Shown here in pieces: positions 1,536 through 57,362 of a stretch of DNA of 64,000 nucleotides. This DNA is from Octopus vulgaris (taxonomy: Eukaryota), in assembly GCA_951406725.2 (NCBI GenBank), contig OX597823.1:91512001-91576000 (forward strand), read 5' to 3'. The notes beneath the pieces are model-generated. The model was given only the letters and a program-made list of their open reading frames with translations. It had not been told where the DNA came from and made no database searches. The stretch's first letter is position 1. Each line of letters begins with the position of its first letter. Made by a program: the position numbers and the translations under genes.

Positions 1536-2156
1536 CATGAGATTCCATTAAGAAGAACGGCTGGATTGCAGGTTTTCCATGTATCATATGTTTAAGGTTG
1601 TTTATGTGTTGTTTATATTTCCAAAGTTTTTCCTTTTTTTCTTCTTTTTCTTAATCTCATGAAACATCTCTCAATAACAGGTTACTGATTCAAAGATGAA
1701 TCCATTTTGTTGTGGAAACACTCATTTTTTTGTGATAATGATGATCTCTGAAACTCTTACATAATTTTTTGGATTATCTCTAAATACTGTGATTGAGGAA
1801 TTATATAATAAGTTCCTGTACTCTTGTCTCTGTTATTCACTCACCGAATTCTTAATCTATTGGGTTCTTAGATAAATTCATTTGTTTCCTTCATATGTTA
1901 TTTGAAGTAATGCAAAAAATATCTTTATCTTAATGTTCTATATTTTTATATTGAAGAGATGAGGAATTATGTACATTACATACATTATTTACATTTTATG
2001 GATATTTGTCCTCATCTTATTTGTTGTTAACACAACGTTTCAGCTAATATACGCTCCAGCCTTTATCAAGTGTCTTGGGGAAATTTCGAACCTTGGTTCT
2101 CATTCTCAAGGTATTTTTCAAAGTTATTATCATTATTATTATTATTATTATTGAGT

Positions 2157-2400
2157 GCTTCCATGGCTGGCTTCCGTGCCGGTGGCACGTTAAAAGCTCC
2201 AACCGATCGTGGCTGATGCCGGACCCCCCTGGCACCTGTGCAGGTGGCACGTAAAAAGCACCCACTACACTCGCAGTGTAGAAACTCTGCCAGATCAGAC
2301 TGGAGCCTGGTGCAGCCCCTGGCTTCCCAGACCCCGGTCGAACCGTCCAACCCATGCTAGCACGGAAAACGGACGTTAAACGATGATGATGATGATGATG
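2157..2400 (+). mobile_element. RTE-LINE 3' end (family C), 5'-truncated, (GAT)n tail
   Basis: CCGTCCAACCCATGCTAGC..GGACGTTAAAC(GAT)n end shared with the 15095-16080 copy. Confidence 0.8.
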
Positions 2401-2950
2401 AGAGGGTAGCGCATGCCATCAAAGTGACACCGGGGTGAAATATACAAAGCCCAGTATACCCATCATGACTACCCGTCTGATAACGGTACACCAGGCACAT
2501 GCATCACAACCATATGTGCACGACATGGTGATCTCATAACAAGATAAACAGCGCATGACCTTACAGGTGGGACCCAGTTAGAATTTTCTTCTGGTCGAGT
2601 AACTCATCCCACTCAAAAGTCCCTGATTAAGGGTTGTTTAAGGATGTTGAATGAAACACCCATGTTTCCAGAGGTGAATTATTCAAACCCCAAAGAATCC
2701 CTCTCAACACATGGCTATGATACTCCCCCACTACTTCTGCTCGTGATCAGAGATGCACATATCGTCAACCACTAAGGGACATGCCCAACTGGTTAAGGTC
2801 AAACAATTGACAAGCAAATCTGTGGTATTGAGCAGAATATTTGCTGTAGCCCATCTTTTATACCAAGACAAAACAATGTACATGATAACACTTCTAATCA
2901 ATTAAGATGAGAAGCCATGAGAGCTGCTGCCTGGTACTACATCAGGGCAT
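2401..2950. mobile_element. unclassified interspersed element inserted in an (ATT)n tract
   Basis: complex ~550 bp segment interrupting the (TTA)n spacer of H1 copy 1, and itself apparently split by the family C insertion. Confidence 0.5.
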
Positions 2951-3344
2951 TGATTATTATTATCATTATTATTATTATCATTATTATTATTATTATTATA
3001 GCTGTTGTTATTATTCAGGTCACTACTTGGAATTGAACTTGGAACCTTGGGGTTAGTATCCTGCGCTCATAACCACAATGCCATATGCCCATGGGCATAT
3101 TAATAATAATAATAATGAAAATAATAATAATAATAACAATAATAAAATCATCGAAAAATACCTTAGGAATGAGAACCCAGGTTTGAAATTTCCCCCAAGA
3201 CACCTGATGAAGGCTGGAGAGTATGCCAGCTGAAACGTTGTTAACAACAAACATGATGAGGACAAATATCCGTCAAATGTAAATAATGTAAATAATGTAA
3301 ATAATTCCTCATCTCTCAAATATAGAACTGAATTACAAATTCCT

Positions 3345-6575: not shown

Positions 6576-6600
6576 ACCTATTCTTTTTCTTTCTTTTTAG

Positions 6601-6789
6601 ATGGGCTGAATCCTGGAAATACTGCAAAACCAGGTCAGCCTATGGTAAAGGCAGAGCAAGCCCCTAACACTTTGCTTCAATCTAAAGTCAGTTTAATATC
6701 AATGGCCCCCAAATAGGGACCATATCAAATATTAAGCTGATAAGAACAGGTGCTGCACTTTGAGCTGAGCCAAAAGTCCAAGTAGCAAC
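6601..6789 (-). pseudogene. U2: U2 snRNA pseudogene, full length (189 nt)
   Basis: minus strand GTTGCTACTTGGACTTTTGGCTCAGCTCAAAGTGCAGCACCTGTTCTTATCAGCTTAATATTTGATA...GACCTGGTTTTGCAGTATTTCCAGGATTCAGCCCAT aligns end to end with metazoan U2; branch-site pairing GTAGTA is GCAGCA and the Sm site is degraded. Confidence 0.9.
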
Positions 6790-20529: not shown

Positions 20530-20838
20530 CAGTTCTATATTTAAGAGATGAGGAATTATTTACATTATTTATATTTGACGGATATTTGTCTTCATCTTAT
20601 TTGTTGCTAACACAACGTTTCGGCTGATATACCCTCCAACCATCATCATCATCATCATCATCATCATCACCACCACCACCACCACCACCATCACCATCAT
20701 CATCATCCAGATCACTACCTGGAATTGAACTCAGAATCTTGGGGTTAGTAGCTCGTGCTTTTAACCACTATGCCATATGACCGTAGTAGTAGCGATAATA
20801 ATAATAATAATAATAATAAAAATAATAATAATAATAAC

Positions 20839-20883
<45 letters not shown>

Positions 20884-21045
20884 AACAACATCAAAAAATA
20901 CCTTGGGAATGAGAACTGAGGTTCAAAATTTCCCCAAGACACCTGATGAAGGCTGGTGGGTATATCAGATGAAATGTTGTGTTAACAATAAATGAGATGA
21001 GGACAAATATCCGTCAAATGTAAATAATGCAAATAATGTAAATAA
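20530..21045. mobile_element. Palindromic tRNA/HHR element H1, copy 2
   Basis: terminus CAGTTCTATATTTAAGAGATGAGG; minus tRNA head ~20708-20783; plus-arm CTGATGA at 20943. Confidence 0.8.
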
Positions 21046-26914: not shown

Positions 26915-27049
26915 CAGTTCTATATTTAAGAGATGAGGAATTATGTACATTATTTAGATTTGATGGATATTTGCCCATGGGCATATGGTGTAGTGGTTAA
27001 GAGTGCAGGCTACTAACCCCAAGATTCTGAGTTCGATTCCAAGCAGTGA

Positions 27050-27121
<72 letters not shown>

Positions 27122-27282
27122 CAACAACATCGAAAAATACCTTAGGAATGAGAACCCAGGTTCAAAATTTCCCCAAGACACCTGATGAAGGCTGGAGGGT
27201 ATATCAGCTGAAACGTTGCGTTAACAACAAACAAGATGAGGACAAATATCCATCAAATGTAAATAATGTAAATAATGTAAAT
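26915..27282 (+). mobile_element. Palindromic tRNA/HHR element H1, copy 3 (near-complete plus arm, left arm deleted)
   Basis: tRNA-like head 26979-27052 (A-box 26986-26996, B-box GTTCGATTCC 27031-27040), (AAT)n, HHR 27177-27222. Confidence 0.85.
27177..27222 (+). ncRNA. minimal type-I hammerhead ribozyme (H1)
   Basis: GACAC-CTGATGA-A-GGCTG..CAGCT-GAAA-CG-TT-GCGTT; helix III replaced by palindromic ACGT. Confidence 0.65.
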
Positions 27283-48672: not shown

Positions 48673-49285
<613 letters not shown>

Positions 49286-50715: not shown

Positions 50716-50950
50716 AAGCCGGTGAGCTGGCAGAAACATTAGCACACTGGGCAAAATGCCTGGCGGTATTTCATCTACTGTTAAGTTCCAAGTTCAAATT
50801 CCACCGAGGTCAACTTTGCCTTTCATCCTTTCGGGGTGGATTAAATAAGTACCAGTTATGCACTGGCGTCGATGTAATCGACTTATCCCCTTTGTCTCTC
50901 CTTGTTTGTCCTCTCTATGTTTAGCACCTTGTGAGCAATAAAGAAATAAA
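50716..50950 (+). mobile_element. SINE family B
   Basis: homology to 23709-23965. Confidence 0.8.
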
Positions 50951-52255
50951 TATTAGATGAAATGGCATCGGTGATGGGGACAACATTTCTGCATGGATGA
51001 AAATGCAGATGTTATGTTAGATGTGTGATAAACTTATACTGATCTTGTAAATTATATAAAGTTAACGGTATATAGAACATTTTAAAGACTTTACATCACA
51101 GAATCACACGTTTCATGATGTGTGATTATTAGCAATTATTTGCTTTGTAGAAGATCTGCTCACTTCAAGTCAGCTGGAGTTCATCTTATTTATTGTGAGA
51201 AGAAAAAGGATGAAACAAACACAACTGCACTGAATTTCATACGTGTCCTCTGACTATGAAATACACTGCCAGAAATAATATATAAGGTTGTTAAACAGGA
51301 TTTTGTGGTTGACATGAGGTGTCAAAGAGACAAAAAGTGATATTTACCAGTCCTGTTTACATTTAGAAGGGTTATACAAAAACAAATAAGAAACTGTAAA
51401 ATTAATGGAATGTGGGCTCCAAACTTATATCCCTGATGTCCAAATATTTTCCCCTCTTGATTTCAATATTGCTATAAAACTCTGTTTATCTGATCTTAAT
51501 GTCTGTATACTACCATCTCTTAAACTCTGGTTTATCTCTCTTCCCTTGCAGCAGTGTATCCCACTCACCTCTCTCTCATCCCTAAATACTTTGCTCATAT
51601 TCTCACCCCCCCCTGCAACTGCAGCCTTCAGAAATAAGCGAGCTTCTTCATCATCATCATCATCATCATCATCGTTTAACGTCCGTTTCAAAAGTTCAAC
51701 TTTATTTTAATGCATTTACTTTCTTCATCGTCATTGAATGTCCATGTTCCATGTCGGCATGAGTTGGAGGGCTTGACAGGATCTGATGGTTCCAAGGACT
51801 GCATCATGCCCCATTACCGACTTTGCCATGGTTTCTACAGTTGGTTGCTATTCCTAATGCCAACCACTTTAATGAATGTACTGGATGCATTTTTATATGG
51901 CACCAGCACTAGTGAGGTTGACATGCTACTTGCAAGACTGGAGAGTGGGTTGATGTGAGTGAGGTACAACAACCAGCAGTATGTGTGTGTGTGTGTGTGT
52001 GTGTGTAGGGGTGGAAGTTGTAAGAGGGATGGCAGAATAAGAGATGGGGAATGGGTGTGGAGAATAAAGGCAGGCGACGATTGCAAAGATTGAATTAGGG
52101 GTGAAGGGTGGACTACTCACTTAACAAAAGCAACAAAAAGCTACGCATATCACCATTTTTTAGTTTAAGATATTGGTTTCAAATTTTGATGCAAGGCCAG
52201 CAATTTTCAGTGGAGAGAATGGTTGATTAGATCGACCCCAGTATTCAACTGGCAT

Positions 52256-52568
52256 TTATTTACATTATTTACATTATTTACATTTGACAGATATTTGTCC
52301 TCTTCTTGTTTGTTGTTAACATACCGTTTCGGCTAATATACCCTCCAGCCTTCATCAGGTGTCTTGGGGAAATTTCAAACCTGGGTTCTCATTCCTAAGG
52401 TATATTTTGATGTTATTATTATTATTATCACCATTATTATTCAGGTCACTGCCTGATTTATAAGCCCTAAAATTCACTCCCTAATTGCCCACGGGCATAT
52501 TGTGTAGAGGTTAAGAGCGCGGGCTACAAACCCCAAGATTCCGAGTTTGATTCCAGGCAGTGTCTTGA

Positions 52569-52647
<79 letters not shown>

Positions 52648-52668
52648 CAATAATAATAATAACAATAA

Positions 52669-52699
<31 letters not shown>

Positions 52700-52884
52700 A
52701 ACAACAACAACATCGAAAAATACCTTAGGAATGAGAACCCAGGTTCGAAATTTCCCCAAGACATTTGATGAGGGCTGGAGGGTATATCAGTCGAAATGTT
52801 GTGTTAACAGCAAACGAGATGAAAACAAATATCTGTCAAATGTAAATAATGTAAATAATTCCTCATCTCTTAAATATAGCACTG
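52256..52884. mobile_element. Palindromic tRNA/HHR element H1, copy 5 (both arms largely retained)
   Basis: minus-strand HHR 52318-52363; centre TGCCCACGGGCA 52486-52497; plus tRNA head; plus HHR with mutated core (TTGATGA); right terminus. Confidence 0.85.
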
Positions 52885-53193
52885 TGGTATTTATTTTATC
52901 AACTCTGAAATGAAGAATGGCAAAGTAAATCTTGGTAGAATTTGAACTTAGAACATAAAGTGGATTGAAACGTCACTAAGCATTTTGCTGAGTCTGCTAA
53001 CAATTCTGCCAGCTTGCTGTTTCGATTTTTGTTTAGTTTAAGATATTAAAACAGAAGAATGAGATGAAAAGTGGAGCAAACATGAAAAGGCATTTAGAGC
53101 TTAGGCCAAACAGGTTGTCATCTCAAGAACTTCAGCATCTAACGTTTGAACTGGACACTTAACCAATGATGAAAGTTTAGGGAGTCCTTAATC

Positions 53194-56907: not shown

Positions 56908-57095
56908 GTTCTATATTTAAGAGATGAGGACTAATATCCGTCATTTTTTACATTTGATGGATATTTGTCCTCATCTTGTTTGTTGTTAACCCAAGACACC
57001 TGATGAAGGCTGGAGGGTATATCAACCGAAACGTTGTGTTAACAGCAAACAAGATAAGGACAAATATCTATTAGATGTAAATAATGTAAATAATA
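56908..57095. mobile_element. H1 copy 6, collapsed to a terminus, short arms and one HHR (56995-57040)
   Basis: GACAC-CTGATGA-AGGCTG..CAACC-GAAACGT-T-GTGTT between inverted arms. Confidence 0.8.
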
Positions 57096-57128
57096 TCATG
57101 CATGGGTTCTGCAGCTGCTCAAAAATAC

Positions 57129-57362
57129 CTATTTCTTTACTACCCACAAGGGGCTAAACACAGAGGGGACAAACAAGGACAGACAAGCGGATTAAGTCGA
57201 TTATATCGATCCCAGTGCATAACTGATACTTATTTAATCGACCCCAAAAGGATGAAAGGCAAATTCGACCTCGGCGGAATTTGAACTCAGAGCGTAGCGG
57301 CAGACGAAATACCGCTAAGCATTTTGCTCGGTGCACTAACATTTCTGCCAGCTCGCCGCCTT
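57129..57362 (-). mobile_element. SINE family B
   Basis: reverse complement of 23709-23965. Confidence 0.85.

What the first reader, a model, noticed from the sequence alone, without database searches (positions are those of the whole stretch)
52256..52884. Palindromic mobile family: two head-to-head tRNA (Pol III) heads, each leading to a minimal hammerhead ribozyme (6 copies)
Seen: six copies (1934-3330, 20530-21045, 26915-27282, 48673-49285, 52256-52884, 56908-57095). Together they reconstruct one ~650 bp palindrome: terminus, HHR(-), (TTA)n, tRNA head(-), centre GCCC(AT/AC)GGGC, tRNA head(+) with A-box TGGYGTAGTGG and B-box GTTCGATTCC, (AAT)n, HHR(+), terminus. The HHR reads GACAC-CTGATGA-A-GGCTG-loop-CAGCC-GAAA-CG-TT-GTGTT, with helix III reduced to palindromic ACGT. 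No TTTT lies between head and HHR on the transcribed strand, and each copy has a different internal deletion. Established: minimal HHRs with palindromic helix III occur in Penelope-like elements and are proposed to cleave as dimers; the schistosome Sm-alpha SINE also joins a tRNA head to an HHR. Inference: a divergently transcribed, self-cleaving Pol III SINE pair, possibly mobilised by Penelope RT. I do not know this double-headed architecture from described families.
Basis: partly seen in the sequence, partly recalled or inferred. Interest (0 to 1): 0.88.

Follow-up and report, generated by a model that had tools for sequence, protein, structure and literature searches.

The report
Penelope retrotransposon with tRNA-like promoter
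The mirror-image repeats are truncated, inverted insertions of a protein-coding Penelope retrotransposon whose terminal repeat carries a tRNA-like segment that likely acts as an RNA polymerase III promoter, which would be an unusual way for such an element to be transcribed and to spawn short SINE-like copies.

Summary
The six copies, the tRNA-like head and the minimal hammerhead are real, and head-to-head junctions exist genome-wide (82 forward exact matches). But this is not a stand-alone double-headed SINE. Head, (AAT)n, hammerhead and end are the pseudo-LTR of an autonomous Penelope/Poseidon element (about 835 codons, RT plus GIY-YIG). The focal copy itself carries that ORF's stop codon (52461-52463) instead of a second head. 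The ends are asymmetric: one has the 25-35 bp Penelope tail, the other not, and 42 of 56 inverted loci have target-site duplications. The palindromes are therefore the known Penelope inverted insertion, made anew each time. What is new: the head lies between stop codon and ATG, where relatives have CCAAT/TATA motifs; 5' ends pile up at its first bases (22 of 32 arms); and the 2.8-kb sense strand has no TTTT (shuffles P 0.004-0.05; relatives 1.8 per kb, though 2 of 26 also have none). Likely, Pol III starts at GCCCACGGGC, and these self-complementary ends join two cDNAs head-to-head. A hairpin-driven template switch is the main rival. Pol III transcription and self-cleavage are untested. I found no description of this in the papers searched.

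The parts
52250..52261 (.). Left target-site duplication (12 bp, overlaps the element's short end by microhomology)
   Evidence: 11 of 12 identical to 52885-52896
52264..52410 (-). Inverted arm of the pseudo-LTR without tail (arm positions 1-147; equals the first codons of the Penelope ORF)
   Evidence: 93.9% to the majority arm
52318..52363 (-). Minimal type I hammerhead motif, core intact, cleavage-site region mutated
52411..52437 (-). (AAT)n linker of the inverted arm
52438..52455 (-). Last 18 bp of the tRNA-like head on the inverted arm; the arm is truncated here
52455..52486 (+). 3' end of the Penelope RT-GIY-YIG ORF (stop codon TAA 52461-52463) and the 23-bp spacer
   Evidence: 96.9% to the ORF end, E 1e-8
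52487..52496 (+). Self-complementary GCCC-AC-GGGC; its first G is the inferred RNA 5' end
   Evidence: 5' breakpoints pile up here; start site inferred
52493..52567 (+). tRNA-like head with decayed A box (52500-52510) and B box (52545-52554)
   Evidence: best local match among 25 genomic tRNAs is tRNA-Arg(TCG), L555
52568..52712 (+). (AAT)n linker
52713..52859 (+). Pseudo-LTR arm; ORF start ATG at 52731-52733; runs in frame into the ORF in L322, L328, L333, L336, L340
52760..52805 (+). Minimal hammerhead motif inside the coding frame; core C3 mutated in this copy
52860..52884 (+). Penelope 'tail', present at this end only
   Evidence: inverted arms stop at arm 138-148 in 52 of 56 loci
52885..52896 (.). 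Right target-site duplication
1934..3330 (.). Copy 1: arm(-), an 800-bp unrelated repeat inside the (TTA)n, head(-), centre, arm(+); tail at both ends
20530..21045 (.). Copy 2: truncated tailed arm(-), head(-), short arm(+); 11-bp target duplication
26915..27282 (.). Copy 3: truncated tailed arm(-), centre, head(+), short arm(+); 9-bp target duplication
48673..49285 (.). Copy 4: truncated tailed arm(-), head(+), short arm(+)
56908..57095 (.). Copy 6: two truncated arms, no head

Best explanation
These repeats are inverted, 5'-truncated insertions of an autonomous Penelope/Poseidon retrotransposon, and the tRNA-like head in its pseudo-LTR likely is an RNA polymerase III promoter whose transcripts begin with the self-complementary GCCCACGGGC. 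Shown: the unit order (ORF stop, 23-bp spacer, head, (AAT)n, ATG, hammerhead, tail, rest of ORF), the tail at one end only, target duplications, and the pile-up of 5' ends at the head start. Inferred from the Anolis Poseidon biochemistry: the protein cuts both target strands and starts two cDNAs at two internal sites of the RNA, one with and one without the tail. Inferred here: when both cDNAs run to the RNA 5' end, their 3' ends anneal through the 10-nt palindrome (two G.T mismatches resolve to AC or GT at random) and give the head-to-head form; earlier stops and template jumps give the 'deleted' forms. Any truncated copy that keeps the head would keep its promoter and could yield more short SINE-like RNAs. 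The TTTT-free sense strand would also let Pol III read through the whole ORF. The hammerhead was probably kept functional in source copies but did not cut the RNAs that were copied.
For: ORF upstream of head in many copies; RVT_1 E 1.4e-10; 33% identity over 303 aa to Anolis P0042, E 7e-48; one stop-free frame of 841 codons in the majority of 31 natural segments. Inverted arm in 56 of 90 tail-anchored loci, ending at arm 138-148 in 52 of 56; target duplication >=8 bp in 42 of 56 versus 62 of 443 mismatched pairs. This matches the Penelope inverted-plus-tail pattern (PMC8557442, passages) and the two RT start sites (PMC11167929). Of 32 tail-side arms that reach head position +6, 22 end or mirror at -6..+4, against 13 of 45 ending in the rest of the head; sharp upstream edge at -6/-5. 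Seven of 70 loci join the ORF N-terminus to the head start. Five of six 5' pseudo-LTRs that keep the head start begin there (L347, L360, L365, L401, L404). Centre never GT in 100 listed ORF-to-head junctions but AC 4, GT 4, AT 3, AA 1 relative to the tail in mirrored ones. No T4 in 2,819 nt; natural copies 0.40 per kb over 105.7 kb versus 1.84 per kb in 26 related loci of similar T content and 9 in a Neptune ORF of the same genome. Relatives show CCAAT/TATA-like motifs at the same position. The one common core variant of the hammerhead is at the free position 7 (33 of 129 arms).
Against: No direct evidence of Pol III transcription. The T4 deficit is modest (codon shuffle P 0.027, approximate dinucleotide shuffle 0.05), and 2 of 26 relatives also have none, one of them (L463, 2,265 nt) with a TATA motif. 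The source has an imperfect hairpin over the same site (-11.1 kcal/mol) that could cause the hot spot alone. Breakpoints spread over about 12 nt. L405 and L322 have ORF end upstream of a 5' pseudo-LTR, so longer or jumped templates existed. A and B boxes decay in copies like the rest of the head. A Pol III RNA would be uncapped and its translation is unexplained (recalled knowledge).
Confidence: 0.65

Rival explanations
1. Same Penelope element, but the tRNA-like head is a passenger (an old tRNA or SINE insertion in the pseudo-LTR). Head-to-head forms come from template switching at the quasi-palindrome over the head start, and the RNA comes from Pol II read-through.
For: Imperfect hairpin from -16 to +11; mirrored segments often only 10-22 nt long (12 of 23); T4 deficit only P about 0.03; D. 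virilis Penelope has a TATA-less LINE-like promoter (PMC2377424, passages).
Against: Many breakpoints at -5 are followed upstream by neither the source nor the mirrored base and join the ORF N-terminus or flank; a hairpin block would be expected at its 3' side; no CCAAT/TATA motif is seen in the short spacer; T4 rate is about a fifth of relatives.
Confidence: 0.25
2. One reading: an independent palindromic double-headed SINE master, divergently transcribed, borrowing a Penelope RT.
For: About 82 exact head-to-head junctions; the two arms of a locus share the core variant in 54 of 56 loci (64% expected) and differ 8.5% versus 10.3% between loci.
Against: ORF-to-head junctions outnumber them (124); palindromes centred in arm, head or ORF are as common; centre orientation is random relative to the tail; arm concordance is also expected from two cDNAs of one source.
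Confidence: 0.06
3. Foldback DNA transposon or MITE with long terminal inverted repeats.
For: Long inverted arms with target duplications.
Against: Unequal ends, variable-length duplications, 5' truncation gradient and an RT-GIY-YIG ORF continuous with the arms.
Confidence: 0.01

Closest known systems
Penelope/Poseidon clade of Penelope-like elements, e.g. Anolis Poseidon PAc (PMC11167929) and D. virilis Penelope (PMC2377424)
   Same: Single RT plus C-terminal GIY-YIG ORF, hammerhead in the pseudo-LTR overlapping the ORF start, tail at one end, inverted 5'-truncated partner, uncleaved RNA as template.
   Different: A tRNA-like A/B-box segment fills the stop-to-ATG spacer; 5' ends pile up at it; head-to-head short forms are very frequent; no TTTT on the sense strand.
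Schistosoma Sm-alpha/Sj-alpha SINE-like repeats (as reviewed in PMC6765202, passages)
   Same: Pol III-type promoter followed by a hammerhead.
   Different: Those are described as non-coding tandem repeats; here the same layout is the terminal repeat of a coding element and is inserted as inverted pairs.
Animal non-LTR retrozymes (bioRxiv 10.64898/2026.07.22.740005)
   Same: Short hammerhead-bearing sequences derived from Penelope pseudo-LTRs.
   Different: Retrozymes are head-to-tail tandem arrays; no tRNA-like promoter or inverted pairs in the three of five parts read.
tRNA-derived SINEs
   Same: tRNA-like head, partner-derived 3' end, target duplications.
   Different: The 3' end is not borrowed: head and 3' end are both parts of the autonomous element.

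Membership tests
Penelope-like element, Penelope/Poseidon clade | RT followed by C-terminal GIY-YIG in one ORF, without the Neptune zinc-finger linker | tested here: met
Penelope-like element, Penelope/Poseidon clade | Pseudo-LTR whose 3' part is the ORF start | tested here: met
Penelope-like element, Penelope/Poseidon clade | 30-40 bp tail at one end and inverted 5'-truncated partner | tested here: met
   56 of 90 loci inverted, 52 of 56 lack 25-35 bp
Penelope-like element, Penelope/Poseidon clade | Placement in the clade by RT phylogeny | not tested
   only pairwise scores; no tree was built
Minimal type I hammerhead of PLEs | CUGANGA and GAAA core, bulged base before helix II, G10.1-C11.1, palindromic helix III | tested here: met
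   compared with PMC4209133 passages
Minimal type I hammerhead of PLEs | Excess conservation or covariation | tested here: inconclusive
   copies decay near neutrally (core 5.5%, stems 5.3%, rest 4.5%); the one common core variant is at position 7
Minimal type I hammerhead of PLEs | Self-cleavage as monomer, dimer or with protein | not testable with these tools
   bench assay needed
tRNA-derived SINE | tRNA-related head with A and B boxes | tested here: met
   score 64 to tRNA-Arg(TCG) versus shuffle maximum 42; only six isotypes sampled; no cloverleaf call at normal thresholds
tRNA-derived SINE | Independent non-autonomous family with its own source sequence | tested here: not met
   head is continuous with the Penelope ORF
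tRNA-derived SINE | Transcription by Pol III | not testable with these tools
   indirect support only
Non-LTR retrozyme | Head-to-tail tandem units each with a hammerhead | tested here: not met
   inverted pairs dominate

The most novel reading that the evidence does not exclude
An autonomous retrotransposon that captured a tRNA-derived Pol III promoter, purged Pol III terminators from its 2.5-kb RT-endonuclease ORF, and is transcribed into mRNA by Pol III; the same promoter in each 3' repeat makes self-amplifying SINE-like RNAs whose palindromic 5' ends show directly that Penelope insertion joins two cDNAs.
Probability: 0.3. Interest if true: 0.85.

Novelty: new variant of a known kind. Interest (0 to 1): 0.6.

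Why it matters
If true, a long protein-coding RNA of a mobile element is made by Pol III, a polymerase normally limited to short non-coding RNAs, and SINE-like elements can be born from inside a Penelope element without any later fusion. Even without that, some 17,000-19,000 copies (rough estimate) with two distinguishable ends and a marked centre give a natural record for testing how Penelope inverted repeats and tails form, which PMC8557442 calls undefined. It also warns that such repeats can be mis-annotated as SINEs or MITEs.

Tried and rejected
Rfam on the whole window (top 150 of 315 shown) and on one copy: no hammerhead or tRNA match. Pfam GIY-YIG search of the genome returned mostly a young Neptune-type family with no similarity to the arm: rejected as partner. 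Random 10-kb samples held only 2 copies in 300 kb, too few for statistics, so anchored samples were used; these are biased to well-preserved copies and mostly to C1. The look-up of sequencing runs: no RNA holder listed. Raw RNA reads of organism C laid on L371 cover arm and ORF end in both directions about equally with no start pile-up at the head; L371 has only half a head and the reads probably come from copies inside host transcripts, so this tests nothing. A peak of breakpoints at +1 was considered as an RNase P site and dropped, because GT-centred mirrors give it artificially. Folding z-scores of four window hammerheads are weak (0.43, -0.45, -1.30, -2.53). One search had an off-by-one error in its mirror count and was replaced. 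rows are not independent (both arms, a duplicate locus, at least two foreign SINE heads); searches give the one-row-per-locus count. Earlier findings of the scan: nothing.

Full report
Observation. The window lies at G000:C10:91512001-91576000 in a 2.8-Gb genome that looks octopus-like (recalled repeat landscape, not tested). The family is large: 4,040 exact matches to the 28-nt end and 848 to the 46-nt hammerhead, reversed controls 0. Runs under seven organism codes hold 0.68-0.86 of the words of one copy. No window copy has both heads, but an exact head-to-head junction occurs 82 times forward and 80 reverse, and whole arm-head-head-arm copies exist. ARAGORN and Rfam do not call the head or the hammerhead. 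The head aligns best to a genomic tRNA-Arg(TCG) among 25 distinct tRNAs of six isotypes (score 64, shuffle maximum 42).

What it is. Upstream of the head many copies have a unique sequence that is the 3' end of an ORF. [quoted passage not shown] At the other side the arm with hammerhead and end runs in frame into the ORF N-terminus in L322, L328, L333, L336 and L340, and 100 places match that junction with at most one mismatch. A majority of 31 natural segments gives one stop-free frame of 841 codons, 835 from the ATG in the arm. The focal copy has the ORF end and stop codon at 52455-52486. Copies are 92.6% identical to the majority; no whole intact ORF was among the loci examined.

Why palindromes. 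In 90 loci anchored on the tail, 56 have an inverted arm; 52 of these stop at arm position 138-148, 25-35 bp short of the tail, and 42 have a target duplication of 8 bp or more, against 62 of 443 mismatched pairs. Some palindromes include ORF on both arms (L275, L267, L254). Craig et al. describe exactly this, an inverted 5'-truncated copy and a 30-40 bp tail at one end (PMC8557442, passages). Frangieh et al. show that Anolis Poseidon protein cuts and extends both strands, starts RT at two internal sites that bound the tail, has its hammerhead across the ORF start, and uses uncleaved RNA (PMC11167929, parts 1-2 of 4). The inverted layout is therefore known Penelope behaviour.

Why head-to-head. 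The intact ORF-to-head junction has 124 exact matches, with centre AC, AT or GC and never GT in the 100 listed. Mirrored junctions have both AC and GT, unrelated to the tail side (AC 4, GT 4, AT 3, AA 1; 8 not orientable), so they are made at insertion and not copied from one palindromic master. 5' breakpoints pile up at the head start: in 210 head matches (rows not independent) 85 junctions fall at -6..+5 and 23 are mirrored, with 3 at -7..-11 and 27 running into the ORF. One row per locus: of 90 tail-side arms 29 end in the arm, 16 at the linker, 13 inside the head, 22 at the head start (17 plus 5 reclassified as mirrors) and 10 further up. Seven of 70 loci join the ORF N-terminus to the head start, and five of six 5' pseudo-LTRs that keep the head start begin there; L405 is the exception. 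The simplest reading is an RNA 5' end at the G of GCCCAC, 12 nt before the A box, as for a Pol III start (recalled knowledge). Two cDNA ends with this 10-mer pair at -10.4 kcal/mol with two G.T wobbles. The rival is the imperfect hairpin over the same site (-11.1 kcal/mol).

Pol III through the ORF? The 2,819-nt majority has no TTTT but 32 AAAA. Expected: 2.9 by synonymous-codon shuffle (P 0.027), 5.1 by base shuffle (P 0.0035), 2.8 by an approximate dinucleotide shuffle (P 0.05). Natural copies have 42 in 105.7 kb, 0.40 per kb, as simulated decay of a TTTT-free source predicts (0.38). Of 80 related metagenome loci, the 26 with at least 1,200 nt aligned and T at most 25% have 1.84 per kb (observed/expected 1.02; several are the same family), and 2 of 26 have none; one of these, L463, has a TATA motif. 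Six of the eight relatives printed show a hammerhead-like motif behind CCAAT- or TATA-like motifs at the place where this element has its head (read by eye). A Neptune ORF of the same genome has 9. This is suggestive, not proof.

Hammerhead. The majority has the features listed for PLE minimal hammerheads (PMC4209133 passages). Copies decay near neutrally (core 5.5%, rest 4.5%); the one frequent core variant, in 33 of 129 arms, is at the free position 7, which fits selection in source copies. Both arms of a locus share it in 54 of 56 cases (64% expected), which any single-source model explains. Activity is untested.

Literature. Eight answered searches gave no paper describing a Penelope element with a tRNA-like or Pol III promoter; two searches returned 0 papers, and most listed papers were seen only as listings. 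Schistosome Pol III SINE-like repeats with hammerheads are known (PMC6765202, passages); animal retrozymes derive from pseudo-LTRs (bioRxiv 10.64898/2026.07.22.740005, parts 1-3 of 5); D. virilis Penelope has a TATA-less internal promoter (PMC2377424, passages). An octopus repeat annotation lists Penelope families but its main text has no hammerhead or palindrome mention (PMC13282606, passages); its library and supplements, Repbase and Dfam were not seen and may hold this family.

Verdict. Member of the Penelope/Poseidon group (about 0.95). The double-headed SINE is not supported as a unit. A tRNA-derived Pol III promoter in the pseudo-LTR that explains the head-to-head hot spot is likely (about 0.65); Pol III transcription of the whole ORF is possible (about 0.3). 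New variant of a known kind; interest 0.6.

Noticed in passing
window 6596-6789 (-): Full-length U2 snRNA-like sequence, Rfam 116.5 bits, with several changes at the 5' end; gene variant or pseudogene.
   Followed up: no
L111-L120 (e.g. L113 2841-5183, L114 1267-4967): Young Neptune-type Penelope-like family with many 781-codon RT-GIY-YIG frames, an overlapping upstream ORF of up to 479 codons, CCAAT/TATA-like repeats after the stop and a degenerate hammerhead-like motif near the 3' end.
   Followed up: partly
window 2152-2950; L188 864-1410: Another repeat of about 550-800 bp sits inside the (AAT)n linker of this element in both places, suggesting targeting of the microsatellite.
   Followed up: no
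L256, L257, L262-L266, L270, L279 (C31): At least nine near-identical loci on contig C31 share one Penelope copy and its flanks: a tandem or segmental amplification.
   Followed up: no
window 1-64000: Six copies in 64 kb against 2 in 300 kb of random samples: the window is locally enriched.
   Followed up: no
L345, L353, L364, L397, L398, L409, L167: Breakpoints at head position -5 are mostly preceded by an A that is in neither the source nor the mirror; possibly a non-templated base added by the RT.
   Followed up: no
window 50716-50954 and 57124-57362: Inverted pair of a different dispersed repeat, 83% complementary, SINE-like by eye.
   Followed up: no
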